Source of the DNA: an uncultured Hyphomonadaceae bacterium | Lineage (GTDB): Bacteria > Pseudomonadota > Alphaproteobacteria > Caulobacterales > Hyphomonadaceae | Assembly (NCBI GenBank): GCA_964472435.1 | Contig: CAYYNG010000001.1 | Coordinates: forward strand, 1 to 25,402 | Direction: 5' to 3' | DNA length: 25,402 nt | Shown: piece after piece, positions 4,012 through 23,716 of the stretch | Position numbering within the stretch: the stretch's first letter is position 1 | Layout of the letters: each line of letters begins with the position of its first letter | Notes under the pieces: model-generated | Database searches by the model: none | What the model was told of the DNA's origin: nothing | The model's input: only the letters and a program-made list of their open reading frames with translations | Made by a program: the position numbers and the translations under genes

Positions 4012-4033
4012 CGCCTGCGCGCCCGGCCGTGGC

Positions 4034-5431: not shown

Positions 5432-5451
5432 GGTGCGAAATCCTCTTCTGC

Positions 5452-7215: not shown

Positions 7216-7396
7216 GCCGGGCTCCCCTAATACGCGGACTCTGGCGTTGTGAGTGAAATATCCCCGAAAGATGTGTAAATCGTCACTGAATCCGGGGCGG
7301 AATTGTGACGAATTTCGTGCGAAAAGATGGATGTCGTTAAATGTTTACTGACGAATTGAGCGCGTTTCGCCCCCCTGTTAGGGGACGGGGTCGGCC

Positions 7397-8332
7397 TTAT
7401 TGCGTCGTCAGGGCGACGAACACGTCTTCTAGGTGCGGTTCTTCCGTTCGGAGGTCGGCGATCGACAGGCCGCCTTGCCGGACGCTTTCGAGGAGCCGGC
7501 CGATGCCGGTTTCGCTGGCGCGGTAAGTAATCGCGAGGGTGCCGTCGGCTCGGATCTCGGCGTCGACGCCGGACAACTCACCCGGAACCGAGGTCAGCGG
7601 GGACTTCGGCGTCACGACCAGCGTCTTGTGGTCCAGCCGCCGAAGCAAGGACGCTGTCGGTTCGCAGGCGATGATCTCGCCGTGATTGACGATCGCGATC
7701 GTGTCGCAGAGCTCTTCGGCCTCCTCGAGATAGTGGGTTGTTAGAATGATCGTCGTGCCGAGGGCGTGCAGCTCCCGCACATAGGACCAGAGGGATCGGC
7801 GGAGCTCGACATCCACCCCCGCGGTCGGCTCGTCCAAAATCAAGACGGGCGGATTGTGAACGAGCGCTTTGGCCACCATCAGCCGACGCTTCATGCCTCC
7901 CGACAGTTGGCGCACATAGGCGTCTTTCTTGTCATCGAGGCCGACCGCCGCCAAAATCTCCATAGAGCGCCGCTCGGATTTCGGCACGCCGTAGAAGCCG
8001 GCCTGGAGTTCAAGCGCTTCAAGGGGGGTAAAGAACGGATCCATCGTGATCTCTTGCGGTACGACGCCCAGGGCGGCGCGCGCCTCGCGCGGGGCGCTGT
8101 CGATGTCTCGATTCCATATGCGGGCGACGCCGCTTGTCTTGACGACAAGACCCGCCAAAATATTGATGAACGTTGATTTCCCCGCGCCGTTCGGGCCGAG
8201 CAGGCCGAAAATCGATCCGCGGGGGATTTTCAGATCGATGCCTTTCAAGGCCCGCTTCTCCGGCATCTTGCCCGAGGCGCGGTAGGTTTTGTCGAGGCCG
8301 ATCACCTCGATGGCGAACTCTGGCGGTGTCAT
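7397..8332 (-). CDS. ABC transporter ATP-binding protein (ABC-2/multidrug type)
   Basis: Walker A GPNGAGKST, signature LSGGMKRR, Walker B ILDEPT, H-loop TTHYLEEAE. No permease gene is adjacent. Confidence 0.93.
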   Translation of the reverse strand: MTPPEFAIEVIGLDKTYRASGKMPEKRALKGIDLKIPRGSIFGLLGPNGAGKSTFINILAGLVVKTSGVARIWNRDIDSAPREARAALGVVPQEITMDPFFTPLEALELQAGFYGVPKSERRSMEILAAVGLDDKKDAYVRQLSGGMKRRLMVAKALVHNPPVLILDEPTAGVDVELRRSLWSYVRELHALGTTIILTTHYLEEAEELCDTIAIVNHGEIIACEPTASLLRRLDHKTLVVTPKSPLTSVPGELSGVDAEIRADGTLAITYRASETGIGRLLESVRQGGLSIADLRTEEPHLEDVFVALTTQ

Positions 8333-8517
8333 GAGAGCCCCTATGGAATCAGGCGGTCACTCGTAAAGATGCGGCCGCTCCAGGCAGTTATATGCGCTCT
8401 CGACGGCGCGTTTCAAAGATCCGGCGACGGGCGGGCGCGGTTTGCCGATTGACGAACCCGTCCGGCGCTTCGTAGGTGCGAGCGGCTGATCGAACCGCCT
8501 GGACAAGGATGACCGCC

Positions 8518-8724
8518 ATGGCCGCCGCCCCGACGCCCCCCGCTTCCGATGCGCCGGAGATCGTCTATGTGGACGATCACCAGGTTTCCTGCGACGGAGG
8601 CGGCGGAGCCCTCGGCCATCCGATCGTTTATTACGAGGTCGGTGCGAACGGGTTCGTCGAGTGCGGTTATTGCGACCGTCGCTTCATTCTTCGCGGCGGC
8701 CCGGCCGACGGCTCTAATCGCTAA
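8518..8724 (+). CDS. Small CHCC-type zinc-finger protein (NDUFS6/13-kDa-like family)
   Basis: Motif V.CDGGGGALGHP.VY...CGYC; SD AAGGA 8 nt upstream of ATG 8518 (alternative start 8509). Confidence 0.85.
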   Translation: MAAAPTPPASDAPEIVYVDDHQVSCDGGGGALGHPIVYYEVGANGFVECGYCDRRFILRGGPADGSNR

Positions 8725-10271
8725 TCGGCCACCAAGCCGCTCGCCCGCCCCATGACGTGGAAGATTTCGTTCTGCTCCATCACGCCGCTGACGAGTTCGG
8801 CGCCCGGGCCGCGGGCGAAGACCGGGACGTCCTCGCCGGCATGGGTCTCAGAGGGCGCCGGGATGAGGACTTGCTGCTGGAAGTCCCGCGCTGTCGTGTC
8901 GACGTCCGAGAGGTCGGCGCGCCGGCAATCGGCGGTCTCGTCGGTCGCCCCGAGACACGGCGCGCTTGCCCCGTTCGCGTAGGAAAGGGTGGTGTAGGGG
9001 AGGCCGTCCGCCGCCGTCGCCACGGCGCCTGTCGGGTAAAGCACCTTGCCCAGGATGGGGTTGTTGCGGCCCGGATAGCCCTGGATGGTCAGCGTGTGGG
9101 AATGGTCGGCCGTCACGATGACGAGGGTTTCGTCCGGGTCCGTCAGCTCTAACGCCGTCGCCACCGCGCGGTCGAACGCCGCGGCGTCGGCCAGCGCCCG
9201 CGCCGCATTCGTGCCGTGGTGAGCGTGGTCGATGCGTCCTCCTTCGACGAGAAGAACGTAGCCGTCCTCATCACGTGACAGTCGCGTGATCGCGGCGGCG
9301 GTCATGTCTGCGATCGAAGGCTCCCCGTTCGCGTCGCCCGGGCGATCCAGTTCGTACCGCATATGGGAGGGTTCGAAGAGACCCAGGATCCGTGCATCGC
9401 TGGCAAAATCGGCGGCGTCGAAGCCTGCTTGATCGAACACAACGGCGTGGTCGGGGCTCTTTGCAGTCCACTCGTCGATGAGGTTGCGGCCATCGCCCCG
9501 CGAGCCGTTAAGCGCGTTATTTTCAGGGTCGGCTGCGTCCGAGGGCAGGAAGTGGCGCCGGCCGCCGGCGAGCGCCACCTCGAAACCGTCGCCGCTTGGC
9601 CAATCGATGAATTGCACGGCGATGTCCGGGCAATCGCCCTGTACTTCGGTGTCGTCCTCCCAATCGCGGGAGGCGCTTTCAGCGAACGTGGCCGCCGGGG
9701 TGGCGTGGGTCAGCCGGGTCGTGCTGACAAAGCCGGTCGCGAGGCCGGCGTTCTCGGCGAGTTCGAACAACGTATCCGTGCCGGCGCCCGCCTGGCTCGG
9801 ACAATTGCCGAAGCTGGCGGCGGTGGTGAGGCCGAGGGTGCGCGAGCGCGACTTGATCCCCGTCAGCATCGCGGTGGCTGTCGAGGCGCTGTCGGAGACC
9901 TGCGCGTCGTGGGAATAGGTTTTGGAGAGCGCCACGTGCGGAAGGGTCTCCATCGCCAAGCGATAGGACTCGCCGTCGACCCCTTGGGACTGGCCGGCGT
10001 AGATGCGTGCAGCGGTGACAGTGGAGACGCCCATCCCGTCGCCGACGAACAAGATGATGTTCCGCGCCCGGCTCGGCGCCCGCCCTTCGGCCCGGCGATC
10101 GACCGCCGCTTTCGCCGAGCGGTAATACGCGTCTGCGGCCTGTTTCGGGGTCACGGCCACGCGGGCCGGGGGCGCTACCGATTGCGCATCGGCGCGGTTC
10201 GGCCGCGTGCTGGCCGAACAGGCCGTGATCACAATGAGCGCAAGGGCGGCGAAAAAGGCGTGGTACCGCAT
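8721..10271 (-). CDS. phoA: Alkaline phosphatase (PhoA family), predicted lipoprotein
   Basis: Motifs IILFVGDGMG, DSASTAT (phosphoserine), THATPAA, VEGGRIDHAHH, VTADHSH, ETHAGEDV. N-terminus MRYHAFFAALALIVITAC is lipoprotein-like. Confidence 0.92.
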   Translation of the reverse strand: MRYHAFFAALALIVITACSASTRPNRADAQSVAPPARVAVTPKQAADAYYRSAKAAVDRRAEGRAPSRARNIILFVGDGMGVSTVTAARIYAGQSQGVDGESYRLAMETLPHVALSKTYSHDAQVSDSASTATAMLTGIKSRSRTLGLTTAASFGNCPSQAGAGTDTLFELAENAGLATGFVSTTRLTHATPAATFAESASRDWEDDTEVQGDCPDIAVQFIDWPSGDGFEVALAGGRRHFLPSDAADPENNALNGSRGDGRNLIDEWTAKSPDHAVVFDQAGFDAADFASDARILGLFEPSHMRYELDRPGDANGEPSIADMTAAAITRLSRDEDGYVLLVEGGRIDHAHHGTNAARALADAAAFDRAVATALELTDPDETLVIVTADHSHTLTIQGYPGRNNPILGKVLYPTGAVATAADGLPYTTLSYANGASAPCLGATDETADCRRADLSDVDTTARDFQQQVLIPAPSETHAGEDVPVFARGPGAELVSGVMEQNEIFHVMGRASGLVAD

Positions 10272-10317
10272 GGTTCGAGATCCTGTCGGACGGTTCGAGG
10301 TCGTCGCTAGCATGGCA

Positions 10318-12062: not shown

Positions 12063-12243
12063 AGGGGGTCGGGCTCCTCGAGGGATGGCGGGCGGCCGCC
12101 CCCCCGCCACTGGGTGTTCCGTCGCAGCTGCGGTGGCGATTGCGAAAATGCAAGTGAAAAGACGTTCTGCGGAACGGCGCTTGCTTGTTGCTCCGGGGCC
12201 GCGCCGACATTAAGGCGCTTGGATCATCGGGATTGTCCTTATC

Positions 12244-13302
12244 ATGTCGATCGCTGAACGCTTCGGTGCGCTGATCGCGCCGCTAAACGCGCCCATCGAC
12301 GCCGCCGATACGCTGGCGGTGGTGGGCGGCGCTGTGTTGGCCGGGCTCGCCGCCTCCCTCATGGCGCACGCCCTTCGCTGGACGGTCGCGGCCGTCCAGA
12401 CGATCGACGCGTTCGTTCGAGACCGCTCGGCGCGGCGCCGCAGCGATGTCGGCCTGCACGTGCGGATTGCCGCGGGACGCGGGCGCCGCGCCCGGCGGGC
12501 GGCGCGGTTTCTGGAAGGCGCGCTGCGCGCGGACTTGCCGTCCTTCTGCCTTGCCGCGGAGACGTCGGTGCGCCGGGCCGGCGGCGCGCCGATCCGGAGC
12601 GCCGTGGCGTTGCGGCGGCGCTTGATTCGGTCGGGCGCGACGGCGGTTTTGTCGGCTGAGGTCGAAGGCCGCGGCGAAGGCGCATTGACGATCAGGGGGC
12701 TTCTGTGCCGCGCTGCGCCCAACGGCCCGGATCTCAAGACGATCGACGCCACCTTTTCCGCCGATCCAGCGGAATGGACCGCGAACTATGGCCGCGCGGC
12801 GGCCTATCTCGTCGCCAAACGGCTTCAGCCCCTGCTTGCGACGCCGGCGAACTTCCGCGAGGCGCGGATCCGAGCGCTCGGCGACACGCTGTACTCAGCG
12901 CTCGCGGCGGCGCCTGATCTTCCCCCGGCGGTGCGCGCAGAAGTGGAGGCCGACTATTGCGCCTATGCCCTGCAGCTTGCGGCGCTGACCCGGGAGACCG
13001 CGAGCCTTGACCAGATCATCTCGCTGCGCGGCGAGACCTTAGCCGACGACGCCTTTCTCTCGGCTGCGCCCGCCGCCGCGCCAATCGCACGGATCGATAT
13101 CGGATGCGCCCTCCTCGCCAAGGCGGAGATCCGATACGACCCCCGCCTCGTGCAAGCTGCGATCGACCATCTGAAATCCGCCATCGAGACGCTGTCGACC
13201 GAGCCGCGCGTCCAACGCTTGCGCGCTGCATCGGACGCAATCGTCAAAGCGCAGGAGCTGCTCGCCTCCCGAAAGCGGTTCTCGATCATGGGCGGTCTTT
13301 AG
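12244..13302 (+). CDS. Hypothetical protein with N-terminal transmembrane segment and Ala/Leu-rich helical C-terminus
   Basis: A 352-aa ORF fills the gap between gluQ and msrA and has a hydrophobic stretch [21 protein letters not shown]. No family was recognised. Confidence 0.7.
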
Positions 13303-13952
13303 GCGGAGACAGGTCCCGCGGGGCAGGAAACGCCTGTGCCGCCCAGCCCGCAATATCCGTGCGGGTTCTTCGCAAGATACTGCTGGTGCTCCGGTTCGGC
13401 GTAGTAGAACGGCTGGTCCGCCCGGATCTCGGTTGTGATCGCAGCGGGCCGGCCGGCGTCTTTCAGCGCGTCGGCATAGCGGCGAAGCGAGGCTTCGGCC
13501 GCTGCGGTCTGGGCGTCCGTCGTCGTATAGATGGTGGAGCGGTATTGCGTGCCAACGTCGTTGCCCTGGCGCATGCCTTGGGTCGGGTCGTGGGATTCCC
13601 AGAAGACTTTGAGAAGCGTGTCGAAGTCGACCGTCTTCGGATCGTAGACCACCTCAACCACTTCCGCATGCCCCGTTTTTCCCGAGCAAACCTCGCGATA
13701 AGTCGGGTTCGGGGTGCGGCCGCCCGCGTATCCCGCCGCCGTCATCCAAACCCCGCGCGTCTCCCAAAACTTGCGCTCTGCGCCCCAGAAGCAGCCGAGG
13801 CCGAAGAGCGCGGTTTCGAACCCTTCCGGGGGCGTCGCTTTCAGCGGCCGGTCGTAGACGAAATGCGTCTCCGCCGTCGCGATCGGGTCGGACCGTCCGG
13901 ACAAGGCGGCCGTCTCGGCGGGGAGGGTGGCGGGTTTTCTCTGAAACAGCAT
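13299..13952 (-). CDS. msrA: Peptide methionine sulfoxide reductase A
   Basis: GCFWG active site, [44 protein letters not shown]. Start ATG 13952 has SD AGAGGAG. Confidence 0.96.
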
Positions 13953-14054
13953 GGCGGTCGCTCCTCTAGCCTCCTCCAGGTAGGGGCGGGGAGGGGCGGC
14001 GGCAATCCGCGGCTTGCGGGCGAGGCGCGCATGCGTATAGTCCCGCGGCCTTAA

Positions 14055-14144
14055 GGTGAGGTGGCCGAGTGGTCGAAGGCGCACGCCTGGAACGCGTGTA
14101 GGCAGGCAACTGTCTCCAGGGTTCGAATCCCTGTCTCACCGCCA
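14055..14144 (+). tRNA. tRNA-Ser(GGA)
   Basis: 90 nt. Acceptor stem GGTGAGG/TCTCACC plus GCCA; anticodon arm CACGC-CTGGAAC-GCGTG (GGA at 14089-14091); long variable arm; T-loop GGTTCGAATCC. Confidence 0.97.
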
Positions 14145-14212: not shown

Positions 14213-14704
14213 ATGTCCCGACTGACCGCCGTTCGTTTTCTGCTCGCCGGCGCCGCCGCTGCGGGCCTCGCCACGGCCGCCGCAGCCCAAGGATTGGAAA
14301 CGCGCCAGACCGTGTCCCGCATCGAATTCTCCGAAGGGCCGAACGGCGAGACGGTTCGCAGCGAAGTTTCGGCCGAGACCGTCGCGCCGGGCGATCGGGT
14401 CCGTTATCAGCTTTCGTTTTCCAACGCCGGCGCCGAACCGGCGTCAGCGATCGCCCTAGTGATGCCGATCCCGGCTGAAACTGTCCTGATCGAAGGCACC
14501 CCGGAAGCGACGCTGTCAGCGACCACCACCTATTCTGTCGATCAAGGCGTCACGTTCGCTCCGTTGGATGTGTTGGAAGTCGCCAGCGGCGAGTTGGTCC
14601 GCCCAGCCCGGGCCGGCGATGTCACCCATGTCCGCTGGGCCGTGCTCGACGATGTCGCGCCGTCTGCTACGGGATCCGTAGCGTTCGAAGCGCAAGTCCG
14701 TTAA
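14213..14704 (+). CDS. Cluster gene A: secreted single truncated DUF11-like domain protein (putative chaperone or cap)
   Basis: SD AGGAG; Sec signal ending AAAA|Q; DUF11-like PGDRVRYQLSFSNAG...PIP; C-terminus ...GSVAFEAQVR*. Confidence 0.85.
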   Translation: MSRLTAVRFLLAGAAAAGLATAAAAQGLETRQTVSRIEFSEGPNGETVRSEVSAETVAPGDRVRYQLSFSNAGAEPASAIALVMPIPAETVLIEGTPEATLSATTTYSVDQGVTFAPLDVLEVASGELVRPARAGDVTHVRWAVLDDVAPSATGSVAFEAQVR

Positions 14705-14723
14705 CCCTGTTAATTTGTAAAAC

Positions 14724-14767
14724 CAGGTGGGCTTTCAAGTTTTGTTGAAGGCTCGCCTGCCTTTTTT
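14724..14767 (+). terminator. Probable Rho-independent terminator after gene A
   Basis: 15-bp stem CAGGTGGGCTTTCAA/TTGAAGGCTCGCCTG (three G-U pairs), 6-nt loop, followed by CC and TTTTTT. Confidence 0.7.
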
Positions 14768-14887
14768 GCCCCATTTCAGCCTTGTTTTTGCAGCGGCGGC
14801 GAAAATTCCCAAGAACCGCTTAGGTTCGCTTTAATCAATTTCAGAGATTTCGTGGTTCATCAGACCCTAACCGTGGCGGATTGAACC

Positions 14888-16228
14888 ATGACGAAACGTG
14901 ATTTCCCGGCGGCTCGCTCCGCCAAACTGAGTTCAGCGGCGGTCGCCGCGCTGCTCTTCGCTGCTGGCGCGCACGCGCAGGCGACGCCTCCAGCAGACAA
15001 TAACTTCACCGACGCCGGTACGGCCGTCGAAAACACCTTCACCCTGGACTACTCGGTCGCGGGCGCCGCCCAAGACACGATCACCAATGACGACAGCCAG
15101 GCCGGTGTGGCCGGCGTGATCGTCCAAGGCACGCCGACCCAGTTCCTCGTCGACCGGATCGTCGACCTCGACCTGATCTCGATCGACCCCTCCTCGACCT
15201 TGGTCGTCGCCCCGGGCGCGCCGGCGGCGGCGGGCCGCGTCGGCCCGGCCGGCCCGGAATTGTCCTTCCTCCTCACCAACACGGGCAACGACAACCAAGC
15301 CTACTCGCTCGCCCTGACCGATGGCGCGGACAGCAACGGCGCCGATCTAAACTTCGACGCCACCCCTTACGTGATCCGCGTCGTCGTCGACGATAATGGC
15401 ACGCCGGGGTTCCAGACAACCGGCGCGACCCCGGATACGATCACCACGATCACGGAGCTTGCATCGACCAACAACGCCAACGCCGCAGCCGGCGAGTTCA
15501 CCGCCGACGTGGCGCCGGACGATACGATCCTGATCCTTGTCGAGGGCGACATTCCTGAGATCGGCGACGACCTCGACTCTGACACGAACCCGGACGATCT
15601 CGACAACACGACCGATGATCTTGTTCTGACGGCGCGGGCGCGGGATCCGAACGCGTTTGCGATCGGCGGCGCGCCGACCACGCCGGGCGCGGTGACCACG
15701 GCGTCGGCGACCAACGACCTCGCCACCGCCGACAATGTGCTGATCGATGGAACCGGCGCGACCGACGGAGCGGCCGACGGCCTCTTCTCCGCCGCCTCGC
15801 GCTTCCTGATCGCATCGCCTGACCTTGATGCGGTCAAGACGGTTCGCGCGCTTCAGGATGTCGACGGCGTTCTCGCCACCTGCGACGGGATCGCGGCCAC
15901 GGCGGATCCGGTTCCGGCCCAGGATCCGAACGTCTTCGCCACTCCGGGGACGTGCGTTGAATACATCATCCGCGTCGTGAACCAGGGCGACGCCGGCGAC
16001 ACGGCGTCGGATGCGACGGACCTCGACGTCCTCGACGTTCTGCCGGACAATCTCACCTTCGTCTCGGCCAGCACCGACGGGTTCACCGGCGGCGCCTTCT
16101 CGGGCACCCTTCCGTCCCAGGGCGATGCCTGCGACGGCACGGCCGGCACCTGCGAAGTCGACTTCGAGAACGCCACCCTGGCGAGCGGCGCGATCGGCCG
16201 CGTGATCATTCGGGCGGTTATCGGATAA
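14888..16228 (+). CDS. Cluster gene B: secreted acidic DUF11-domain protein (putative major fibre subunit)
   Basis: Signal peptide ending AHA|Q; N-terminal AGTAVENTFTLDY strand; central FLLTNTGND motif; C-terminal PDLDAVKTV...PGTCVEYIIRVVNQG...DVLP...GRVIIRAVIG*. Confidence 0.88.
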   Translation: MTKRDFPAARSAKLSSAAVAALLFAAGAHAQATPPADNNFTDAGTAVENTFTLDYSVAGAAQDTITNDDSQAGVAGVIVQGTPTQFLVDRIVDLDLISIDPSSTLVVAPGAPAAAGRVGPAGPELSFLLTNTGNDNQAYSLALTDGADSNGADLNFDATPYVIRVVVDDNGTPGFQTTGATPDTITTITELASTNNANAAAGEFTADVAPDDTILILVEGDIPEIGDDLDSDTNPDDLDNTTDDLVLTARARDPNAFAIGGAPTTPGAVTTASATNDLATADNVLIDGTGATDGAADGLFSAASRFLIASPDLDAVKTVRALQDVDGVLATCDGIAATADPVPAQDPNVFATPGTCVEYIIRVVNQGDAGDTASDATDLDVLDVLPDNLTFVSASTDGFTGGAFSGTLPSQGDACDGTAGTCEVDFENATLASGAIGRVIIRAVIG

Positions 16229-16253
16229 TCTTCGCGAGACGAGCAAAATCAAG

Positions 16254-16285
16254 AAAGCCCCGCGCCCAAGGCGCGGGGCTTTTTT
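16254..16285 (+). terminator. Rho-independent terminator after gene B
   Basis: AAAGCCCCGCGCC-CAA-GGCGCGGGGCTTT followed by a T-run. Confidence 0.9.
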
Positions 16286-16449
16286 CTTTTCAAACCCCGT
16301 GAAATTTCACTGAAATCCAAACTCAGTCATCAGGAAAATATTTCTCCGTAAATGCGATAGTAATCATGGGCCGGCAAAATAGGCCATAAAGAAACGCAAA
16401 TATAAGCGCCAAACAAGGTTAACCCGCGGCGCAATGATGGTGGTTGCAG

Positions 16450-19400
16450 ATGGGTGTTTCCGTTTGGAAACAATTGCGCGGTATGGCCGCGGCTACGCTG
16501 TTTGTAGCCGCCGGCGCCGCCATGCCCGCCGCCGCCGAATTGGGCGAAACGGTCACCAATGTTGCGCAGCTCGCCTATGATCAAAGCGGCGTCAGCTTCG
16601 AGGTCGAGACCAACCCGGCGACCTTCATAATCGAGGCGGCGCGGACGCCGTCGACCATCGAGTTTTTCCGCCTGGCGCCGGCCGACCCTAATGCGTTTGT
16701 CACTCAACTCAACGGGTCGCAGTTCAGCGTGTCGGGATCGATCACGGGGGACGATTTCGAGAACATCGACCCTTCGAGTGCGATCATGGCGCGGGAGATT
16801 GCCGGCGAGGCCGACATGATCGCGCCGGCGGAGACCTATCTCGCCGGCGAGCTGATCGTTGTTCGTGTCACCGACCTTGGGCAAAACGGCGACCCCGCCC
16901 TCATTGAAACCGTGACGGTCACGCTCACCTCCGATGCGGGCGACACGATCGCGCTCCGACTTTTCGAAAGCGGCCCGGACACGGGACAGTTCCTCGCTTT
17001 CGTGCCGAGCACGGTTGAACAGACGCCCGCCAACGATGGCCGGCTGACGACGCCGAACGGCGCCGCATTGACCGCGACCTATATCGACATCTTTGATTCG
17101 ACTGAGATTTCCCTCGACACGGCCCTGGTCGACCCGTTCGGCCGCCTGTTCAACAGCCTCACTGGCGAGCTGATCGACGGCGCCCAAGTTTCAATTGTCG
17201 ACGCGGTTACAGGCGCGCCAGCGCCGGTCTTCGGCGTCGACGCGGTTTCGCCCTATCCCTCGACCCTCGTCACCGGGTCGGTGGTGACGGATGCGAGCGG
17301 GCTTGAGTATCCGCTCGGGCCCGGCGAGTTCCTCTTCCCCCTTATGCCGCCTGGGGACTACCGGCTGGAGATCAGCCCGCCCGAGGGCTTCACCGCGCCC
17401 TCGAACCGCGCGCCGGAGACATTTACCGACCTCGACAACGCGCCCTTTGAGATCATCGACGCCTCGTTCGGGGGCTCGTTTAGTTTGGATCTGACGGGAC
17501 CCCTGAATTTCGATGTCCCGCTCGACCCGGCGGGCGAACTTGTGGTGACCAAAACGGCCGGAACAGAGGTCGCCGCCGTGGGCGACTTCGTCCGATTCGA
17601 GATCGAAGTCGAAAACCGCGGCGAACGGGGCGCGATTTTCGACCTCGTCGACGTGCTGCCCGCCGGCTTCCGGTTCCGTGCGGGGTCGGTCCGCCTCGAT
17701 GGCGTGCGCGCCGCCGACCCGGTCGTCGCGCCCGACGGCGTCACGCTGCAGTTCAAGCAGCAGGCGGTGCTCGCCGGCGAACGGCTGCGGGTCAGCTATG
17801 TCACCGAGTTCGGCGCGGGCGCGGGGCTCGGCGAGGCCGTCAACGTCGCTTTCGCCGTCAGCCCCACGGGCGAGGTGATCTCGAACCGCGGCGAAGCCGC
17901 TGTCATCCTGCAGGAGGCGCTTCTGCGGTCGGCGCTCACCATTGTCGGACGCGTCGCTGAGAACGCCTGCGATCCGGATGATCCTTGGGTTCGCGAGCGG
18001 CAAGACGGGATCGGCGTGCCAGGGGTCCGGCTCTATCTCGAAACGGGGGAGTTCACCGTCACAGACGATGACGGCCTCTACCATTTCGAAGCGATCGTTC
18101 CCGGCACCCATGTTGTTCAGGTCGACCAAGAGACGCTTCCCGAAGGTTACGAAGTCGTGGTTTGCGAGGAGAACACGCAGTATGCCGGCCGGGCGTTCTC
18201 GCGTTTCGTCGAGGGCGTCGGCGGCTCGATCCAGCGGGCGAATTTCTATCTTGAATATACGGGCGAAGGCGCGGCCGAGCCTGCGGTCGAAGAGGCCGCT
18301 GCGACGGCAGCGGATGACGAGCCGCAATACGATCGGGCGTGGCTCGACGCCCAGCCCCCAGGCGCTGTCGCATGGGCTTATCCCGACCCCGACAAGACCC
18401 CTGCGAGCCCCAGCGTCGATTTCGGCGTCTCCCATCCCGCCCAGGGCGCGCTGGCGGTGACGTTGAACGGCGAGCCGGTTCCCGCGGCGAACTATGAGGG
18501 GCGGATCCAGTCGACCGACCAGTCCATGGCGCTGAGCCGTTGGCGCGGTGTCGATATCCAGCGAGGCCGCAATGAGTTCGTCGTCGCAATCGACGGCGTC
18601 GATGTGCTGACGCGCGAGATCTGGTTCGTCGACCGCGCCGTCCGCGCCGCCCAAGTGGCGGACCAATCCATTCTCGTCGCCGACGGGCGCACGAACCCCT
18701 CCATCGCCGTGCGGCTCGAGGATGCAGGCGGCCGCCCCGTCCATGCCGGCCGCCTGGTCGAGGTGAACATCGAAGCGCCCTACCGCTTGAGGGATGCGGG
18801 CGATTTCGAGACCGCCGATCCCGTGACGGCCGCCCGCTCGGCGCGCACCAGCGTCGCGGTCGGCGAGAACGGCATCGCGCGGATCGAGCTTGAGCCGACG
18901 CTGCAAACCGGCCGCGTGCGCCTGCGCGTCACCCTGGATAGCGGCGAGGAGGAGATCACCGCCTTCCTCGAACCAGAAAAGCGGGACTGGATCCTGGTCG
19001 GTCTCGCCGAGGGCACGCTGGGCGTCACCGATCTCGGCGGCGCGGCGATTGAGGACCCTGAGACCATCCTCGACGAAGACGGCCGGATCGCCTTCTTCGC
19101 CAAGGGCGTCGTGCGCGGCGATTGGCTCTTAACCATCGCCGTCGACACGGCGGTCGGTCGCGGCGACGCCGATGGCGACATTTTTGAAGATATCGACCCG
19201 AACGCTTTCTACACGCTCTACGGCGACCGATCGTTCCAAGATCATGACGCCGAAAGCCGGTTCCCGGTCTTTGTGAGGATCGAACGCCGCACCTTCCAAG
19301 CGCTCTTCGGCGACTATGACACAGACCTCACCGACACGACGCTCGGCCGCTACTCGCGCCGTCTGTCGGGTGTGAAGACGGTCTACGAGACCGACCGGGT

Positions 19401-21501
19401 GTCGGTAAACGCGTTCGCCGCCGAGACCAATCAGGGTTTCCAGAAAGACGAGTTCGCGGCCGACGGCACGTCGGGTCCGTTCGAGCTCACGGTGGCGCCG
19501 CTCCTGCGCAATTCCGAAGAGATCTTCGTCGAAACCCGCGACCGGTTCCGCCCCGACGTGATCGTGGCGACCCAGCCGCTCGCTCGGTTCGTCGACTATG
19601 ATATCGACTTCGACACCGGCGAGGTGATCTTCCGCCAACCGATCCCGGCGACGGACGCCTCGTTCAATCCCAACGTCATCGTCGCCGACTACGAGACCTC
19701 CGAAACCGTCGATCGCGACATCGTCGCCGGCGGCCGGGCGGCGGCGCGCTTTGCGGACGGCCGCGTCGAGATTGGCGCCACCTACATCCGGCAAGAGGGC
19801 GATGAGACCGAGGAAGACACGGTCAGCGACCTCGCCGGCGTCGATCTCACCATTCAAATCGATCGCAACACCGAGCTTCATGCGGAATACGCGACGAGCC
19901 GGACCGAGACGGAGGAGGTCGGCGACGACGAACGCTCCGAGGCGATCTTGGTCGAAGTGGTCCGGCGGACCGAGCGGGTGCAGGCGAGCGCTTACTTCCG
20001 CGAAGATGAAGACGGGTTCGGCCTCGGTCAACAGACCTCGGCGACGCTCGGCGCGCGCCGCTATGGCGCTGCAACGACGGTGCAGCTCGGCGATGTCTCC
20101 GGCATCGCCGCCGAGGGGCGCAGCCGGGCCTTCGTCGACAGCGAGATCTATCGCGAAGAGAACCTCAACACCGGCGACACGCGGACCGTCGCCGAAGCGT
20201 CCGTTGGCCAAGACGGCCAACTGTTTGGGATCAGCGCCGGGGTGCGGAACGTCGTTGAGGATTTCAACGCCACCGGCGACCAGCGAACCTCGCTGGCCGC
20301 CATCGCATCCGTCCGCGGCACGATCCCGCGGTTCGGCCTCAACGTCACCGCCAGCCACGAACAGCCGCTTGGCGCGCGCGACGAATCCTCGCTTTTCCCC
20401 CAGCGCACGGTGATTGGCGTGGACAAGACCCTGACCCGGTTCGCCACCCTGAACGTGCGCCACGAGATCCTCGACGGCGCGGACGCGTCTGGCCGCAATA
20501 CGATCGCCGGCGTCACGGTTCGTCCCTGGACCGGCGCTGAGGTGCGCGCGGCGACCGACTTCGCAACCACCGATTCAGGCCGTCGGATCGGGGCGACGGT
20601 CGGCGTCGACCAAAACATCCGGATCAATGAGAACTGGTCGGCTGGCTTCGGCGTCGCCCGGCGCATTGGGATTGATAATGACGATGCGCCGCTGGACGTC
20701 GCGCCTGACGCCGCGCTTTCGCCGCTCGAGACGGCGCCGCAAAGCCCGCTGACCTTGGATGACGGCTTTACGTCTTTGACCACTGGCCTCGGCTACCAAA
20801 CGAGAGGCACGTCCACCTCGGCTCGCTTCGAGTTCCGGGACTCGGCCCTTGGTCAACGCTTCACAGGCGTTTTAGGAGGCGCACGCCAAGCCTCGGAGAC
20901 GTTGTCCTTCGCAGCCGCCGCCCGCCTGCAGCGCGAAACCTTCACTATCGAGGGCGCAGAAGCGCGACGGGATATCGATGCGCGCCTCGGCCTCGCCTAT
21001 CGGCCCCGCGGCGAGGGCGTGATCATTTTCAACCGATTGGATGTGAAGGCCGAGGAGGTCTTCAACACGACCCAGCAGTATCGGATCGTGAACAATTTCA
21101 GCGCCAACATCCTGCCGACGGATAAGATCGAGCTTGCAGTCTTCTACGGCGCGAAGTTCACCGACGCGACGTTCGATGGCGACCAATTCCAAAGCTTCGC
21201 GCAGCTTTTCGGCGGCGAGTTCCGCCACGATGTGCGCCCTTGGCTGGATGTCGGCGTCCAAGGCTCGGTGCTGCACTCGGCGACCACCGACACCTTGGAT
21301 TACTCATATGGTCCGTCGTTGGGCGCGACGCCGGCGACCAATTTTTATGTCAGATTAGGCTGGAACTTAGAAGGCTTCGTGGATCGCGACTTCGAAGCCG
21401 CCGAATTCACCCGCGAGGGCCCCTTCGTTAAGCTTCGGATAAAATTTGACCAAGATACTGTTGGCGAGCTTTTGAGGCGGGTCACGCCCAACGGGCCGTA
21501 G
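16450..21501 (+). CDS. Cluster gene C: about 1680-aa protein with N-terminal Ig-like/DUF11/SdrD-B-like domains and a predicted C-terminal outer-membrane beta-barrel
   Basis: Signal peptide ending PAAA|E; complete DUF11 domain at about 17533-17910; SdrD/Cna-B-like GVPGVRLYLETG..TVTDDDGLYHF..IVPGTHVVQVD. From about 18985 the sequence shows alternating amphipathic strands ending FVKLRIKFD. The start may be TTG 16444 or ATG 16450. Confidence 0.85.
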   Translation: MGVSVWKQLRGMAAATLFVAAGAAMPAAAELGETVTNVAQLAYDQSGVSFEVETNPATFIIEAARTPSTIEFFRLAPADPNAFVTQLNGSQFSVSGSITGDDFENIDPSSAIMAREIAGEADMIAPAETYLAGELIVVRVTDLGQNGDPALIETVTVTLTSDAGDTIALRLFESGPDTGQFLAFVPSTVEQTPANDGRLTTPNGAALTATYIDIFDSTEISLDTALVDPFGRLFNSLTGELIDGAQVSIVDAVTGAPAPVFGVDAVSPYPSTLVTGSVVTDASGLEYPLGPGEFLFPLMPPGDYRLEISPPEGFTAPSNRAPETFTDLDNAPFEIIDASFGGSFSLDLTGPLNFDVPLDPAGELVVTKTAGTEVAAVGDFVRFEIEVENRGERGAIFDLVDVLPAGFRFRAGSVRLDGVRAADPVVAPDGVTLQFKQQAVLAGERLRVSYVTEFGAGAGLGEAVNVAFAVSPTGEVISNRGEAAVILQEALLRSALTIVGRVAENACDPDDPWVRERQDGIGVPGVRLYLETGEFTVTDDDGLYHFEAIVPGTHVVQVDQETLPEGYEVVVCEENTQYAGRAFSRFVEGVGGSIQRANFYLEYTGEGAAEPAVEEAAATAADDEPQYDRAWLDAQPPGAVAWAYPDPDKTPASPSVDFGVSHPAQGALAVTLNGEPVPAANYEGRIQSTDQSMALSRWRGVDIQRGRNEFVVAIDGVDVLTREIWFVDRAVRAAQVADQSILVADGRTNPSIAVRLEDAGGRPVHAGRLVEVNIEAPYRLRDAGDFETADPVTAARSARTSVAVGENGIARIELEPTLQTGRVRLRVTLDSGEEEITAFLEPEKRDWILVGLAEGTLGVTDLGGAAIEDPETILDEDGRIAFFAKGVVRGDWLLTIAVDTAVGRGDADGDIFEDIDPNAFYTLYGDRSFQDHDAESRFPVFVRIERRTFQALFGDYDTDLTDTTLGRYSRRLSGVKTVYETDRVSVNAFAAETNQGFQKDEFAADGTSGPFELTVAPLLRNSEEIFVETRDRFRPDVIVATQPLARFVDYDIDFDTGEVIFRQPIPATDASFNPNVIVADYETSETVDRDIVAGGRAAARFADGRVEIGATYIRQEGDETEEDTVSDLAGVDLTIQIDRNTELHAEYATSRTETEEVGDDERSEAILVEVVRRTERVQASAYFREDEDGFGLGQQTSATLGARRYGAATTVQLGDVSGIAAEGRSRAFVDSEIYREENLNTGDTRTVAEASVGQDGQLFGISAGVRNVVEDFNATGDQRTSLAAIASVRGTIPRFGLNVTASHEQPLGARDESSLFPQRTVIGVDKTLTRFATLNVRHEILDGADASGRNTIAGVTVRPWTGAEVRAATDFATTDSGRRIGATVGVDQNIRINENWSAGFGVARRIGIDNDDAPLDVAPDAALSPLETAPQSPLTLDDGFTSLTTGLGYQTRGTSTSARFEFRDSALGQRFTGVLGGARQASETLSFAAAARLQRETFTIEGAEARRDIDARLGLAYRPRGEGVIIFNRLDVKAEEVFNTTQQYRIVNNFSANILPTDKIELAVFYGAKFTDATFDGDQFQSFAQLFGGEFRHDVRPWLDVGVQGSVLHSATTDTLDYSYGPSLGATPATNFYVRLGWNLEGFVDRDFEAAEFTREGPFVKLRIKFDQDTVGELLRRVTPNGP

Positions 21502-21505
21502 GCGC

Positions 21506-23716
21506 ATGCGGGACATCCTCTTAAACATTCGATCGGCGGCCGGCGCGCTGATCGTGGCGGCGGCGGGTCTCGCGGCCACGAATCCCGCCGCCGCCCAGGC
21601 GGTCGGGACACTGGATTGGTCGAGCCAGGGACTGACGAGCGCCGCGCCCCTGCCCAATCCGTTCATCGTCAGCTCGGGCGGTCGAACGCTAACCATAACC
21701 ACCTCGACCCAAGGCGCGGGGCCCGGGATCGCCACTGTCTACGCCGACTTCGTAACCTTCAATACCGGCGCGCTCTCCGGGCCCGGCGGCATCGGCGTCC
21801 TGGCGTTCAACAATAATAATGTGGACAATAATGAACGCATCATCTTCGAGATGACGTTCGACGAACCGGTCGCCAACCTCGCCTTCGACGTCCAGGACAT
21901 CGACCAGACCGGCGCGGGCGACGATGCGGTGGTTGTGAGCTTCGACGACGGCACGGGCTTTCAGACGCTGCGGGGCACGCCATTTGTCTCGCTGTCGGGA
22001 GCCTCGATCATCGAAGACAACGCGCCGGGTTTCGACGGCTGGGAAGGGAACGGCGCCTCCGGCGTCGCCGACAGCGCCGCCGATCTGCAGATCGATTTCG
22101 GCGCGCAGGAAGTGATCGCCGTGCGCATCGAGTTGTTCAACGCAGACGACTCGCCCGCCGACCCCGGCAACCAATTCGCAGGCATCTCCGATATCAGCTG
22201 GACGACCCCGCCCGGCGCCGACCTGTCGCTTTCGCTTGTCGCCAGCGACGCCGATGCGACGCTAGGCGACCCCACGGCGCTGACGCTGACGGTGATGAAC
22301 GACGGCGCGCTGGCGACCAGCGGCGTCGCCGTGTCGCTGCCGCTCGCACCGAACCTGCGGTACGCCTCCGCCAATGGCGGCGGCGCTTATGATCCGGTCG
22401 CCGAAATTTGGTCCGTGCCCGGCGCGCTCGCCGCCGGCGAGAGCCAGACCCTGATTGTGAACACGACGGTGAATTCGACGGCCTCGAGTTTCACTATTCG
22501 CGGCGAGGTGACGGCGAGCGCCGTCGCCGACCCGGACTCAGTCCCGGGCAACGCGGCCGCGGCGCCCTTTGAAGACGACACCGCGAGCGTCGTCTTTACG
22601 CCAGGCTTCGGCGGCGGCGGCACGACGCCTCCGCCCCTTGGCTGCGGCGCGGCGTCTCAATTCTTTGAGTGGGAGAGCAATCCTTATCCGCCGGGATCCC
22701 TCTCCCAGACCTACACCGTCAATGGATTGGGCTTCGATTTCGCCTTCACCGGCGCGACCGACGATTTCGTTCCCATTGGAGCGCTCGCCAATTCGCCTGG
22801 GACCGACGACGCCTTCACGGGCGGCATCACGGCGGACAATTCGCTGCTGTTTGCGGCCGACTACGACACCCTGGGCGAGACCATCACGCTGACGATCGAT
22901 ATCGGCGCGAGCGGGGTGGGCGTCAGCGAGCTTCAGTTTGTGATCTTCGACGTCGATTTCGGCGCCGGCACGTTCCAAGACGAGATCACGATCACCGGCT
23001 CGCTGGGCGGAGGCGCGACCATTGTTCCGCTGCTTACGCCGAGCGCGTCTAACGTCGCAAGCGGATCCGTCGCCCAGGGCGGTTCGGTCGCAGTGGGCTC
23101 CACAAGCGGCGACGCTAACGTAACGGCCACTTTCTCCCAGGCCGTCGACCAAGTTCGGATCATCTACGACAATGGCCCCGACGCGCCTGCGCTCCCGGGT
23201 CTCCAGGCGATCGCCCTCCACGATCTGGAATATTGCGAGGCGCTGCCGCCGCCGGACCTCTCCGCGGTGAAGACGACGGCGGTCTTCAATCCGGACAATC
23301 CGTCGAATCCGGGAAACAGCGTATTCGCCGTGCCCGGCAACGATGTGACCTACACGATCACCGTCACGAACAGCGGGGACGGGGTGACGGATCCAAGCTC
23401 GATCCTGCTCATCGACGAGCTTCCGGCCGAGGTCGAGTTCTTCAATGGCGATGTCGACGGCCCCTTGGGGGCTGAAACCGCAGCCGTCGCCTTCAACGAC
23501 CAGTCCTCGGGTCTGACATTCGACGCCGTAACCGACGTGCGGTTTTCGAACACGACGAGCCGGCCCCCGAGCTTCCTCGCCTGCAGCTATTCTCCTCTGC
23601 CGGCGCCGGCCTACGACCCCGCCGTTCGATTCATCTGCCTTAACCCGAAAGGGGTGATGGCCGCGGGCGACCCCGATCCGAGCTTTTCCCTCACCTTCCG
23701 CGCCCGGATTAAGTGA
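21506..23716 (+). CDS. Cluster gene D: secreted adhesin-like protein with two related beta-rich domains, one full and one truncated DUF11 domain (putative tip adhesin)
   Basis: Signal peptide ending PAAA|Q; 4 bp after the gene C stop; full DUF11 at about 22214-22600; C-terminal PDLSAVKTT...PGNDVTYTITVTNSG...DELP...SFSLTFRARIK*. Confidence 0.87.
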   Translation: MRDILLNIRSAAGALIVAAAGLAATNPAAAQAVGTLDWSSQGLTSAAPLPNPFIVSSGGRTLTITTSTQGAGPGIATVYADFVTFNTGALSGPGGIGVLAFNNNNVDNNERIIFEMTFDEPVANLAFDVQDIDQTGAGDDAVVVSFDDGTGFQTLRGTPFVSLSGASIIEDNAPGFDGWEGNGASGVADSAADLQIDFGAQEVIAVRIELFNADDSPADPGNQFAGISDISWTTPPGADLSLSLVASDADATLGDPTALTLTVMNDGALATSGVAVSLPLAPNLRYASANGGGAYDPVAEIWSVPGALAAGESQTLIVNTTVNSTASSFTIRGEVTASAVADPDSVPGNAAAAPFEDDTASVVFTPGFGGGGTTPPPLGCGAASQFFEWESNPYPPGSLSQTYTVNGLGFDFAFTGATDDFVPIGALANSPGTDDAFTGGITADNSLLFAADYDTLGETITLTIDIGASGVGVSELQFVIFDVDFGAGTFQDEITITGSLGGGATIVPLLTPSASNVASGSVAQGGSVAVGSTSGDANVTATFSQAVDQVRIIYDNGPDAPALPGLQAIALHDLEYCEALPPPDLSAVKTTAVFNPDNPSNPGNSVFAVPGNDVTYTITVTNSGDGVTDPSSILLIDELPAEVEFFNGDVDGPLGAETAAVAFNDQSSGLTFDAVTDVRFSNTTSRPPSFLACSYSPLPAPAYDPAVRFICLNPKGVMAAGDPDPSFSLTFRARIK

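What the first reader, a model, noticed from the sequence alone, without database searches (positions are those of the whole stretch)
14213..23716. Four-gene cluster that looks like a sortase-independent, donor-strand, covalently linked pilus or fibre with its own outer-membrane barrel
Seen: four co-oriented Sec-signal proteins that all carry DUF11-like modules in complementary form. A is acceptor only. B has an N-terminal donor strand and a C-terminal acceptor. C has a donor strand, Ig-like stalk domains and a large beta-barrel. D has adhesin-like domains and an acceptor only. No sortase, LPXTG motif, PapD chaperone, FimD usher, pilin peptidase or ATPase is present in the cluster. Known: donor-strand complementation builds chaperone-usher pili; Lys-Asn isopeptides with a catalytic Asp/Glu stabilise Cna-type Ig domains; the archaeal thread filament combines both. 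Inference: C anchors and/or secretes a head-to-tail polymer C-(B)n-D, with A as chaperone or cap. I know of such genes only as 'DUF11/conserved repeat domain' annotations, not as a characterised Gram-negative pilus class. Novelty needs a literature check.
Basis: partly seen in the sequence, partly recalled or inferred. Interest (0 to 1): 0.92.

Follow-up and report, generated by a model that had tools for sequence, protein, structure and literature searches.

The report
Split-domain click-together surface fibre operon
Four neighbouring genes of a marine-mat alphaproteobacterium look like one adhesin stalk cut inside a self-crosslinking domain, so the proteins probably plug head to tail, perhaps covalently, into a fibre tied to a giant outer-membrane barrel; I found no description of such a pilus.

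Summary
A (14213-14704), B (14888-16228), C (16444-21501) and D (21506-23716) are co-oriented Sec-signal proteins with DUF11/CLIPPER modules in complementary form. A, B and D end just before the Asn-bearing strand. Mature B and C begin with a G-x-x-V-x-N motif.

In homologues the split triad is invariant:
- B: N49, K317 and D383 in 72 of 72.
- D C-terminal domain: Lys and Asp in 41 of 41.
- C: a complete internal triad in 117 of 117, plus an orphan N-terminal Asn in 116 of 117.
- A-type proteins never carry the Lys in the surveyed loci.

C residues 848-1685 model as a beta-barrel of about 36-40 strands, unlike any solved barrel.

A, B and C co-occur in every genome checked. D-type proteins are modular, with variable heads, and are often unlinked. 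A strong terminator follows B in nearly all loci. No usher, PapD chaperone or sortase was found in the genome.

Between-chain complementation remains inferred. The one complex job gave no usable verdict, and self-complementation within B is not excluded.

I found no paper on this system. The nearest in print are CLIPPER (the domain) and BsaA (the mechanism). This scan flagged the same kind of operon before in at least 12 other genomes.

The parts
14055..14144 (+). tRNA-Ser(GGA) directly upstream of gene A; marks the left edge of the locus.
   Evidence: ARAGORN.
14213..14704 (+). Gene A, 163 aa. Sec signal, then one DUF11-like domain that ends before the Asn strand. It has Gln at the Lys site (codon 14306) and Met at the Asp site (codon 14462), and no Lys at all in the mature protein. 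Read as a non-covalent acceptor: a candidate donor-strand chaperone or cap.
   Evidence: A-type proteins lack Lys at this site wherever it aligned in the roughly 30 A-type proteins of the 40-locus survey. A is present in all 17 genomes with a close C homologue: 13 adjacent, 4 elsewhere or just outside the fetched stretch.
14724..14759 (+). Terminator-like hairpin with a T run, after gene A.
14888..16228 (+). Gene B, 446 aa; the candidate main fibre subunit. Signal peptide 1-30; N-terminal donor stretch about residues 40-66; middle beta-sandwich region; C-terminal acceptor domain about 305-446.
   Evidence: AF2 model pLDDT 84.8, all-beta. B lies directly upstream of C in 16 of the 20 loci of the first set, which include all 16 with a full-length C match to the window's C.
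15005..15085 (+). B donor stretch FTDAGTAVENTFTLDYSVAGAAQDTITN. Asn49 codon at 15032-15034.
   Evidence: N49 is invariant in 72 sequences, with T41, A43 and Q62. The motif sits right after the signal peptide in all loci.
15800..16225 (+). B acceptor domain: DUF11 lacking the Asn strand. Lys317 codon 15836-15838 is the only Lys of mature B. Asp383 codon 16034-16036.
   Evidence: K317 and D383 are invariant. Single Lys confirmed. The chain ends after ...RVIIRAVIG.
16254..16293 (+). Intrinsic terminator or attenuator between B and C: a 13-bp G+C-rich stem followed by TTTTTTCTTTT.
   Evidence: A comparable strong hairpin follows the B stop in nearly all of the 16 other loci folded. In L027 B and C overlap, so that one lies inside coding sequence.
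16444..21501 (+). Gene C, 1685 aa. Signal peptide 1-31, N-terminal donor stretch, stalk of Ig-like domains including one complete DUF11, then a giant C-terminal barrel. Read as anchor and probable export pore.
16537..16629 (+). C donor stretch ELGETVTNVAQLAYDQSG... Asn39 codon at 16558-16560.
   Evidence: G34 in 115, V/I37 in 116 and N39 in 116 of 117 homologues. The same motif occurs in C homologues about 25% identical.
17539..17883 (+). Complete internal DUF11/CLIPPER domain of C, with its own triad K370, D403, N467.
   Evidence: All three residues are invariant in 117 of 117. The spacing K to D of 33 residues equals that in PDB 9IFR (K715, D748, N806; PMC12617251).
18985..21498 (+). C residues 848-1685: predicted outer-membrane beta-barrel of about 36-40 strands, with a small inserted beta domain around residues 1020-1075. 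No Pfam family.
   Evidence: AF2 model. Foldseek against PDB finds only outer-membrane barrels, TM<0.3. AFDB clusters reach TM 0.60. 4975 representative proteins at E<=0.001.
21506..23716 (+). Gene D, 736 aa, starting 4 nt after the C stop. Two head regions without a Pfam match, one internal DUF11, and a C-terminal acceptor domain. No donor motif. Candidate tip protein.
23228..23713 (+). D acceptor domain, residues 575-736. Lys589 codon 23270-23272; Asp637 codon 23414-23416; a conserved Cys pair.
   Evidence: Lys and Asp are invariant in 41 sequences. At least 293 proteins share this domain behind different heads: GEVED, P-domain, discoidin, beta-helix.

Best explanation
The locus encodes a surface-fibre system built from a CLIPPER (DUF11) isopeptide domain that is split between proteins.

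The parts:
- B and D end in a CLIPPER domain that keeps the Lys and the catalytic Asp but lacks the last strand or strands carrying the Asn.
- B and C start, right after signal-peptide cleavage, with that missing stretch.

Proposed assembly:
- The N-terminal stretch of one protein inserts into the open C-terminal domain of the next (donor-strand complementation).
- This rebuilds the triad across two chains, so a spontaneous Lys-Asn isopeptide bond can lock them.
- The chain would read, from tip to base: D-type head protein (acceptor only), one or more B, then C.
- C's N-terminal strand ends the chain. Its barrel of about 36-40 strands holds the fibre in the outer membrane and probably lets the folded subunits through.
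- A is an acceptor without Lys, so it can bind donor strands only reversibly. I read it as a periplasmic holder of donor strands, or less likely a non-covalent cap.
- The terminator after B would make B more abundant than C, as for major pilins.

Shown: the sequence anatomy, its conservation, the barrel prediction, the gene linkage and the absence of known machinery.
Inferred: pairing between chains, bond formation, polymer length, the export route and A's role.
For: 1. Split triad. N49, K317 and D383 are invariant in 72 B sequences. Lys and Asp are invariant in 41 D-type C-terminal domains.

2. Unequal bookkeeping that self-complementation cannot satisfy.
- C has a complete internal triad in 117 of 117, plus an extra N-terminal Asn in 116 of 117 with no Lys partner in its own chain.
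- D-family proteins keep Lys and Asp, but only 1 of 120 has a donor motif near the N-terminus.

3. A-type acceptors lack the Lys wherever the site aligned, across about 30 examples from divergent lineages. B- and D-type acceptors have Lys plus Asp or Glu wherever the sites aligned, except two paralogues in L034.

4. A natural variant, locus L034 (gene order A-B1-B2-B3-C).
- Only C's donor has Asn, and only the adjacent B3 has Lys.
- B3's own donor has Ser. B1 and B2 have neither Asn nor Lys.
- This fits the between-chain register and not the within-chain one.

5. Conservation. B lies next to C in all 16 loci with a full-length C match to the window's C. A-B'-C order is kept in systems about 25% identical. 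The barrel is found in 49 of 401 sampled genomes of the phylum and has 4975 representatives.

6. D-type acceptor proteins with adhesin-type heads exist in all 5 complete genomes checked and elsewhere in the window's own genome.

7. Barrel prediction.

8. A conserved hairpin or terminator follows B.

9. No usher, PapD or sortase in the genome.

10. Precedent for 'donor-strand exchange and lock' with an Asn-Glu-Lys triad, tested by mutation: BsaA (PMC11580942).
Against: - No structural or experimental evidence for pairing between chains. The complex job gave no usable verdict.
- The AF2 monomer of B places residues 41-80 with pLDDT 92-97. This probably means the strand is packed within its own chain in the model.
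- Homology of the N-terminal stretch to the last DUF11 strands rests on a short motif. BLASTP and hhalign do not detect it. A profile test is clear for C (77 of 119 against 6-9 of 119 shuffled) but not for B (22 of 75 against 7-17 of 75).
- The register argument rests on a single variant locus.
- Nothing shows that C's stalk faces outward or that subunits cross through the barrel.
- In one locus (L057) C's donor has Ser while the adjacent B keeps Lys, so the base link need not always be covalent.
Confidence: 0.55

Rival explanations
1. A fixed short stalk, not a polymer. C is an outer-membrane anchor whose N-terminal tag captures one B adaptor, which in turn captures one D-type protein (C-B-D, 1:1:1). 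This would be a sortase-free, isopeptide-based way of displaying various head proteins on a diderm surface.
For: - D-type proteins with one conserved C-terminal domain and many different heads are scattered through the genomes, like clients of a display system.
- In this window B's donor (NTFTLDY) and C's donor (NVAQLAY) differ, which could mean different target grooves.
- Other lineages carry two or three distinct B paralogues in fixed gene order, which suggests an ordered chain rather than a homopolymer.
Against: - A terminator directly after B in nearly all loci suggests B is made in excess over C.
- B has both a donor and a Lys/Asp acceptor, which is all that self-polymerisation needs.
- In lineages with three B paralogues, C's donor closely resembles that of the adjacent B. 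That is expected if both enter the same groove, as a polymerising subunit and its terminator would.
Confidence: 0.2
2. Self-complementation. B's N-terminal strand completes B's own C-terminal DUF11 domain (a discontinuous or circularly permuted domain, stapled by an intramolecular Lys-Asn bond). B would then be a closed monomeric envelope protein. A and D would simply be shortened Ig-like domains, and no fibre forms.
For: - Discontinuous isopeptide domains exist, for example GBS104-like_Ig built from residues 137-211 plus 587-717 (PMC12617251).
- The AF2 monomer is very confident about B residues 41-80.
- An invariant N49/K317/D383 fits a within-chain bond as well as a between-chain one.
Against: - It leaves C's invariant N-terminal Asn stretch without a Lys partner.
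- It leaves the invariant Lys and Asp of donor-less D-type domains without an Asn.
- In L034, B3 keeps Lys while its own donor has Ser.
- It does not explain a conserved Lys-less A in every genome.
- AF2 commonly folds donor strands back onto their own chain in monomer jobs, so the confident monomer is weak evidence.
Confidence: 0.12
3. An envelope tether or structural outer-membrane complex rather than a surface appendage. C's Ig stalk and the A, B and D proteins stay in the periplasm and link the giant barrel to other envelope layers.
For: - Known outer-membrane barrels have both ends in the periplasm, so the stalk leaves the barrel on the periplasmic side unless it threads through the lumen (general knowledge).
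- The best PDB match is Deinococcus SlpA, a barrel that ties the outer membrane to the wall, but at TM 0.27 only.
Against: - D-family heads are GEVED, discoidin, P-domain and beta-helix types, which are typical of extracellular binding proteins (PMC10952558 for GEVED, seen only in the listing).
- No peptidoglycan-binding domain (OmpA, SLH) was found in A-D here.
- DUF11/CLIPPER domains are characteristic of surface adhesin stalks (PMC12617251).
Confidence: 0.06

Closest known systems
Chaperone-usher pili (Fim, Pap, archaic Csu/CupE)
   Same: - Subunits are Ig-like domains that lack a final strand, supplied by the N-terminal extension of the next subunit.
- The tip protein is acceptor-only, with a variable binding head and a conserved 'pilin' domain.
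- A large outer-membrane barrel is encoded in the operon.
- A terminator follows the major-subunit gene.
- No ATP source in the periplasm.
   Different: - No PapD-like chaperone and no Usher-family barrel.
- The barrel has about 36-40 strands, not 24, and is fused to an Ig stalk that itself carries a donor strand.
- The subunit domain is CLIPPER/DUF11 with a Lys/Asp/Asn triad, so the links could be covalent.
- The small helper, A, is an acceptor and not a strand donor.
Clostridium perfringens BsaA (TasA family), 'donor-strand exchange and lock' (PMC11580942)
   Same: An N-terminal stretch with Asn inserts into the neighbour's sheet. A Lys-Asn isopeptide catalysed by an acidic residue then locks the subunits, without sortase. 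For BsaA this was tested by mutation.
   Different: BsaA has a different fold and family (TasA/camelysin-like), lives in a monoderm host, has no outer-membrane barrel and has a SipW-dependent pathway. No sequence relation was seen here.
CLIPPER / DUF11 (PF01345) domains of fibrillar adhesins; crystal structure 9IFR (PMC12617251)
   Same: Same domain family. C's internal copy has the full Lys-Asp-Asn triad with the same Lys-to-Asp spacing of 33 residues.
   Different: In the described proteins the bond lies within one domain of one long chain. Here the domain is cut before the Asn strand, and the pieces sit on different proteins.
Archaeal thread filament, Saci_0406 (PMC9715654)
   Same: Sec-exported subunits joined head to tail by N-terminal donor strands, with proposed extra covalent isopeptide links, and a putative cap gene next door.
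   Different: The thread has an unrelated subunit fold and a bond between Asn57 and the N-terminal amine of subunit n+2. There is no Lys/acid triad and no outer membrane or barrel.
Sortase-assembled Gram-positive pili (SpaA, RrgB, Spy0128)
   Same: Covalently linked chains of Ig-like (CnaA/CnaB) domains with Lys-Asn isopeptides and adhesin tips.
   Different: Those links between subunits are made by sortase at LPXTG. No sortase and no LPXTG occur here.
Predicted superfamily of 38- and 40-strand outer-membrane barrels (PMC8346858)
   Same: A single-chain barrel predicted to be larger than any solved one.
   Different: Membership was not tested here. That paper describes no link to DUF11 subunits (no 'DUF11' in its main text).

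Membership tests
Chaperone-usher pili | PapD-like periplasmic chaperone (PF00345/PF02753) | tested here: not met
   No hit in A-D or the flanking ORFs scanned. PF00345 finds nothing in the 88%-complete genome, and the control genomes ring.
Chaperone-usher pili | Usher-family outer-membrane protein (PF00577), 24-strand barrel with plug | tested here: not met
   No PF00577 hit in C or in the genome. FimD and PapC match the barrel model only at TM 0.18-0.23.
Chaperone-usher pili | Subunits joined by an N-terminal donor strand filling the neighbour's incomplete Ig fold | tested here: inconclusive
   Sequence bookkeeping fits. The complex job gave no usable verdict.
Sortase-dependent pili | Sortase enzyme and LPXTG sorting signal | tested here: not met
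   PF04203 is absent from the genome. No LPXTG-like motif in the C-termini of A-D.
CLIPPER / DUF11 (PF01345, TIGR01451) | Profile match above the curated cut-off | tested here: met
   TIGR01451 is above its cut-off in A, B, C and D. PF01345 scores 67 bits in D and 24.0-24.5 bits (cut-off 24.6) in A, B and C.
CLIPPER / DUF11 (PF01345, TIGR01451) | Lys, Asp and Asn triad within one domain of one chain | tested here: not met
   Met only by C's internal copy (K370/D403/N467, 117 of 117). The terminal domains of A, B and D lack the Asn strand, and A also lacks Lys and Asp.
BsaA / TasA family | TasA/camelysin-type fold and SipW-linked operon | tested here: not met
   No such Pfam or NCBIfam hit in A-D. 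Only the proposed mechanism is alike.
Type V secretion (autotransporters, intimin/invasin) | 12- or 16-strand autotransporter or inverse-autotransporter barrel domain | tested here: not met
   No autotransporter or intimin barrel family in C. The model has about 36-40 strands. Only a sub-threshold Invasin_D3 Ig hit was seen.
Giant 38/40-strand barrel superfamily (Solan et al. 2021) | Sequence membership in their families 002 or 003 | not tested
Only the size class agrees.

The most novel reading that the evidence does not exclude
This is a further class of Gram-negative pilus, independent of chaperone-usher, sortase and type IV machinery.
- A CLIPPER isopeptide domain is split across subunits, so each donor-strand insertion is sealed by a self-catalysed Lys-Asn bond.
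- That irreversible bond, not ATP, would drive ordered assembly.
- A Lys-less decoy acceptor (A) would hold donor strands reversibly in the periplasm.
- One protein (C) would be at once the export pore (a barrel of about 36-40 strands, larger than any solved), the chain terminator and the anchor.
- A family of interchangeable head proteins sharing one C-terminal 'catcher' domain would serve as tips.
Probability: 0.4. Interest if true: 0.92.

Novelty: categorically new. Interest (0 to 1): 0.82.

Why it matters
If right, this adds a widespread, unstudied way for diderm bacteria to build surface fibres. The barrel family alone has about 5000 representatives at the 50%-identity level, and it was found in 49 of 401 sampled Pseudomonadota genomes.

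It would be the first natural Gram-negative case of subunits joined by a split, self-ligating domain, a natural counterpart of SpyTag/SpyCatcher. It would also give a function to the largest predicted single-chain outer-membrane barrels.

It offers testable answers to how folded, covalently linked fibres cross an outer membrane without ATP. It could also supply new orthogonal protein-ligation pairs. Cultivable relatives such as Hyphomonas and Hirschia appear among the homologue names, so tests are feasible.

Tried and rejected
1. Complex prediction with three chains: D C-terminal domain, C residues 32-362, and mature B as the partner. The verdict was 'no support'. My design made one control uninformative, because replacing chain 2 left B with chain 1. 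I do not use this job as evidence either way.

2. Reading within-chain versus between-chain packing from the AF2 monomer of B. Coordinates are not provided, so only pLDDT and secondary structure are known.

3. BLASTP of C's and B's N-terminal 42 residues against the tail of C's internal DUF11 found no alignment. hhalign of the two profiles gave only a spurious match, probability 13%.

4. My own profile test was clear for C but not for B.

5. PDB sequence searches for B, C and D found nothing useful.

6. Foldseek of the B model against PDB gave only generic multi-Ig matches such as integrin legs, TM<0.25.

7. A search for RNA sequencing runs listed none. The DNA holders are stromatolite and microbial-mat metagenomes. 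Read-through at the B-C terminator could therefore not be measured.

8. SusC-like or TonB-dependent transporter reading of C, prompted by a CarboxypepD_reg hit. Rejected: the hit is sub-threshold and no plug or TonB-dependent receptor family matched.

9. Genomic-island reading, prompted by the flanking tRNA-Ser. G+C content is like the flanks. The trpF neighbour recurs in four relatives' loci and the upstream msrA-region match in two. Not pursued further.
Full report
**What is there**

The window is one whole contig of a metagenome-assembled genome (2.59 Mb, 579 contigs, 88% complete). Its closest protein relatives are named Hyphomonadaceae, Henriciella and Hyphomonas. The DNA occurs in stromatolite and microbial-mat metagenomes.

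Four co-oriented ORFs lie between tRNA-Ser(GGA) at 14055-14144, with msrA on the opposite strand, and trpF-trpB:
- A, 14213-14704
- B, 14888-16228
- C, 16444-21501
- D, 21506-23716

All four have Sec-type N-termini ending A-x-A, read by eye. TIGR01451 (the DUF11-type repeat) is above its cut-off in all four. Pfam DUF11 is clear in D and within 0.6 bit of the cut-off in A, B and C. None of the four has a useful relative among solved structures by sequence.

**The complementary cut**

DUF11, renamed CLIPPER, is a CnaA-like Ig domain. It carries a Lys in the first strand, a catalytic Asp about 33 residues later, and an Asn in a late strand (K715/D748/N806 in PDB 9IFR; PMC12617251).

C contains one complete copy, K370/D403/N467. 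All three residues are invariant in 117 of 117 homologues.

A, B and D instead end directly after the strand that precedes the Asn strand. This holds in the window and in every homologue inspected.

Mature B and C begin with the motif G-x-x-V/I-x-N-x-(A/F)-x-(L/V)-x-(Y/F), directly after the signal peptide.

Conservation in homologues:
- B (72 sequences): the invariant residues include N49, K317 and D383.
- D-type C-terminal domain (41 sequences): Lys and Asp are invariant.
- Donor motif in the first 90 residues: 74 of 76 B homologues, 114 of 120 C homologues, but 1 of 120 D-family proteins.
- C's N-terminal Asn39 is kept in 116 of 117 homologues.

Lys is rare in these proteins. Mature A has none, mature B has only K317, and D's first Lys is K589. 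Part of this is the general Lys-to-Arg bias of a high-G+C genome. Even so, the Lys residues that remain sit at the triad positions.

**Survey of 40 loci**

I fetched 40 loci from genomes of the same order, class and phylum.
- A-type proteins lack Lys at the triad site wherever it aligned (about 30 examples). They carry Gln, Val, Ile, Asn, Ser or Gly there, and the Asp site also varies.
- B- and D-type acceptors have Lys plus Asp or Glu wherever the sites aligned, except two paralogues in L034.
- Detected donors all have Asn. Those of L034 fell below the donor profile and were read by alignment.

In L034 the gene order is A-B1-B2-B3-C.
- Only C's donor has Asn, and only B3, next to C, has Lys.
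- B3's own donor has Ser. B1 and B2 have neither Asn nor Lys.
- Every pair is consistent if each donor enters the acceptor of the protein encoded just upstream. The pairs are not consistent if each protein completes itself.

This is a single case, but it is the only observation here that separates the two registers.

**Gene linkage**

B lies directly upstream of C in all 16 loci with a full-length C match to the window's C. A is adjacent in 13 of the 17 genomes including the window. In the other four it is found elsewhere in the genome or just outside the fetched stretch.

D lies next to C in only three of the first 20 loci. D-type C-terminal domains are nevertheless found in all five complete genomes checked that lack an adjacent D, often in several copies. 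One more lies on another contig of the window's own genome.

The D family holds at least 293 proteins. It joins one conserved C-terminal domain to different heads: GEVED, proprotein-convertase P-domain, discoidin and beta-helix. So the conserved core is A-B-C, and D-type proteins are interchangeable partners.

Systems with C only about 25% identical keep the order A, long B-like protein, C, and keep the N-terminal motif. Another class of the phylum carries A plus three B paralogues plus C. There, C's donor closely resembles that of the adjacent B.

The barrel profile finds matches in 49 of 401 sampled genomes of the phylum. It finds 4975 representative proteins at E<=0.001 (2586 at 1e-30), almost always as the C-terminal part of proteins of 1600-3000 residues.

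**The barrel**

An AF2 model of C residues 848-1685, built on 50 sequences, has mean pLDDT 76.8. It consists of about 36-40 long antiparallel strands with a small inserted beta domain.

Foldseek against PDB finds only outer-membrane barrels, all at TM below 0.3: SlpA, FimD/PapC, LptD, TonB-dependent receptors and SprA. Against AFDB clusters the best matches are unnamed or automatically named large barrels, at TM 0.60 and 0.55.

A superfamily of 38- and 40-strand barrels was predicted by Solan et al. (PMC8346858). I could not test membership in it.

**Expression signal**

A canonical intrinsic terminator sits just after the B stop: a 13-bp G+C-rich stem at 16254-16282 followed by a T run. A comparable strong hairpin follows B in nearly all of the 16 other loci folded. 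This is the arrangement seen after major-pilin genes (my own knowledge). It suggests B is made in excess of C. No RNA data were listed to test this.

**What is absent**

- No usher, PapD chaperone, sortase, autotransporter barrel, prepilin peptidase or secretion ATPase was seen among the window ORFs scanned.
- Usher, PapD_N and Sortase profiles find nothing in the genome, which is 88% complete.
- No LPXTG-like motif occurs in the C-termini of A-D.

**Mechanism proposed**

The donor stretch of B or C enters the open terminal domain of another protein and rebuilds the triad. A Lys-Asn bond then forms spontaneously. This mechanism was shown by mutation for the unrelated Gram-positive protein BsaA (PMC11580942).

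The chain would run from a D-type tip through one or more B to C. C would terminate and anchor the chain, and probably export it. A, lacking Lys, can bind donors only reversibly. That suits a periplasmic holder that prevents premature locking; a cap is the alternative.

**What weakens it**

- The one complex job returned 'no support' because of my three-chain design, and it counts for nothing either way.
- The B monomer model is very confident about the N-terminal stretch, which probably reflects packing within its own chain in the model.
- BLASTP and hhalign do not link the N-terminal stretches to the DUF11 tail. My profile test is clear only for C.
- The topology of C's stalk, the passage of subunits through the barrel and the length of the polymer are all untested.

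**Literature and earlier notes**

Six full-text searches found no description of such an operon. The nearest papers are:
- CLIPPER, for the domain (PMC12617251)
- BsaA, for the mechanism (PMC11580942)
- the archaeal thread (PMC9715654)
- the giant-barrel survey (PMC8346858)

This scan has flagged the same kind of operon in at least 12 other genomes, including cyanobacterial, Thermus, sphingomonad and gammaproteobacterial ones. One later check gave odds of 90/100 for the observation and 60/100 for the bold reading. I re-derived the points above on this window and its relatives independently of those notes.

**Verdict**

The best explanation is a split-CLIPPER donor-strand fibre anchored by a giant barrel, at confidence 0.55. 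Self-complementation and a fixed short stalk are the main rivals.

Noticed in passing
L034 (G470:C12:8000-22600), ORFs 136-1650, 1640-2932, 3408-4706, 4951-10128; A at G470:C12:6629-7087: A variant system with three B paralogues. All three B donors lack the Asn. Only the B next to C keeps the Lys, and only C's donor keeps Asn, so this fibre would have a single covalent joint at its base.
   Followed up: partly
L056-L059 and L069 (another class of the phylum; small genomes of 1.4-2.7 Mb): The operon form is A, B1, B2, B3, C. C's donor (for example QLITNTASMGY) is nearly the same as the adjacent B3's donor (ALITNTASMTY). In L057, which lacks B3, C's donor has Ser in place of Asn.
   Followed up: partly
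G305, G410 and G400 (same family; genus g256): In this genus gene A is not next to B-C. It lies about 200-390 kb away on the same replicon, and trpF follows C directly with no D.
   Followed up: partly
window 14055-14144: tRNA-Ser(GGA) lies 68 nt upstream of gene A and overlaps the listed start of the msrA ORF (13299-14084, minus strand). The true msrA start must therefore lie further in. G+C content shows no sign of a recent island.
   Followed up: no
window 12210-13302: Two long overlapping ORFs on opposite strands (12210-12752 minus; 12244-13302 plus) have no Pfam match, in the most G+C-rich kilobase of the window (0.705). Which one is real, if either, is unknown.
   Followed up: no
window 4034-7215, minus strand: A DUF1501/DUF1800 gene pair, a common pair of unknown function, sits beside an alkaline phosphatase gene (8721-10313).
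   Followed up: no
G000:C82:432-893 (locus L076): A second D-type acceptor-domain protein (ORF of about 496 aa) lies on another contig of the same genome. It would be a further candidate partner for the B-C system.
   Followed up: no
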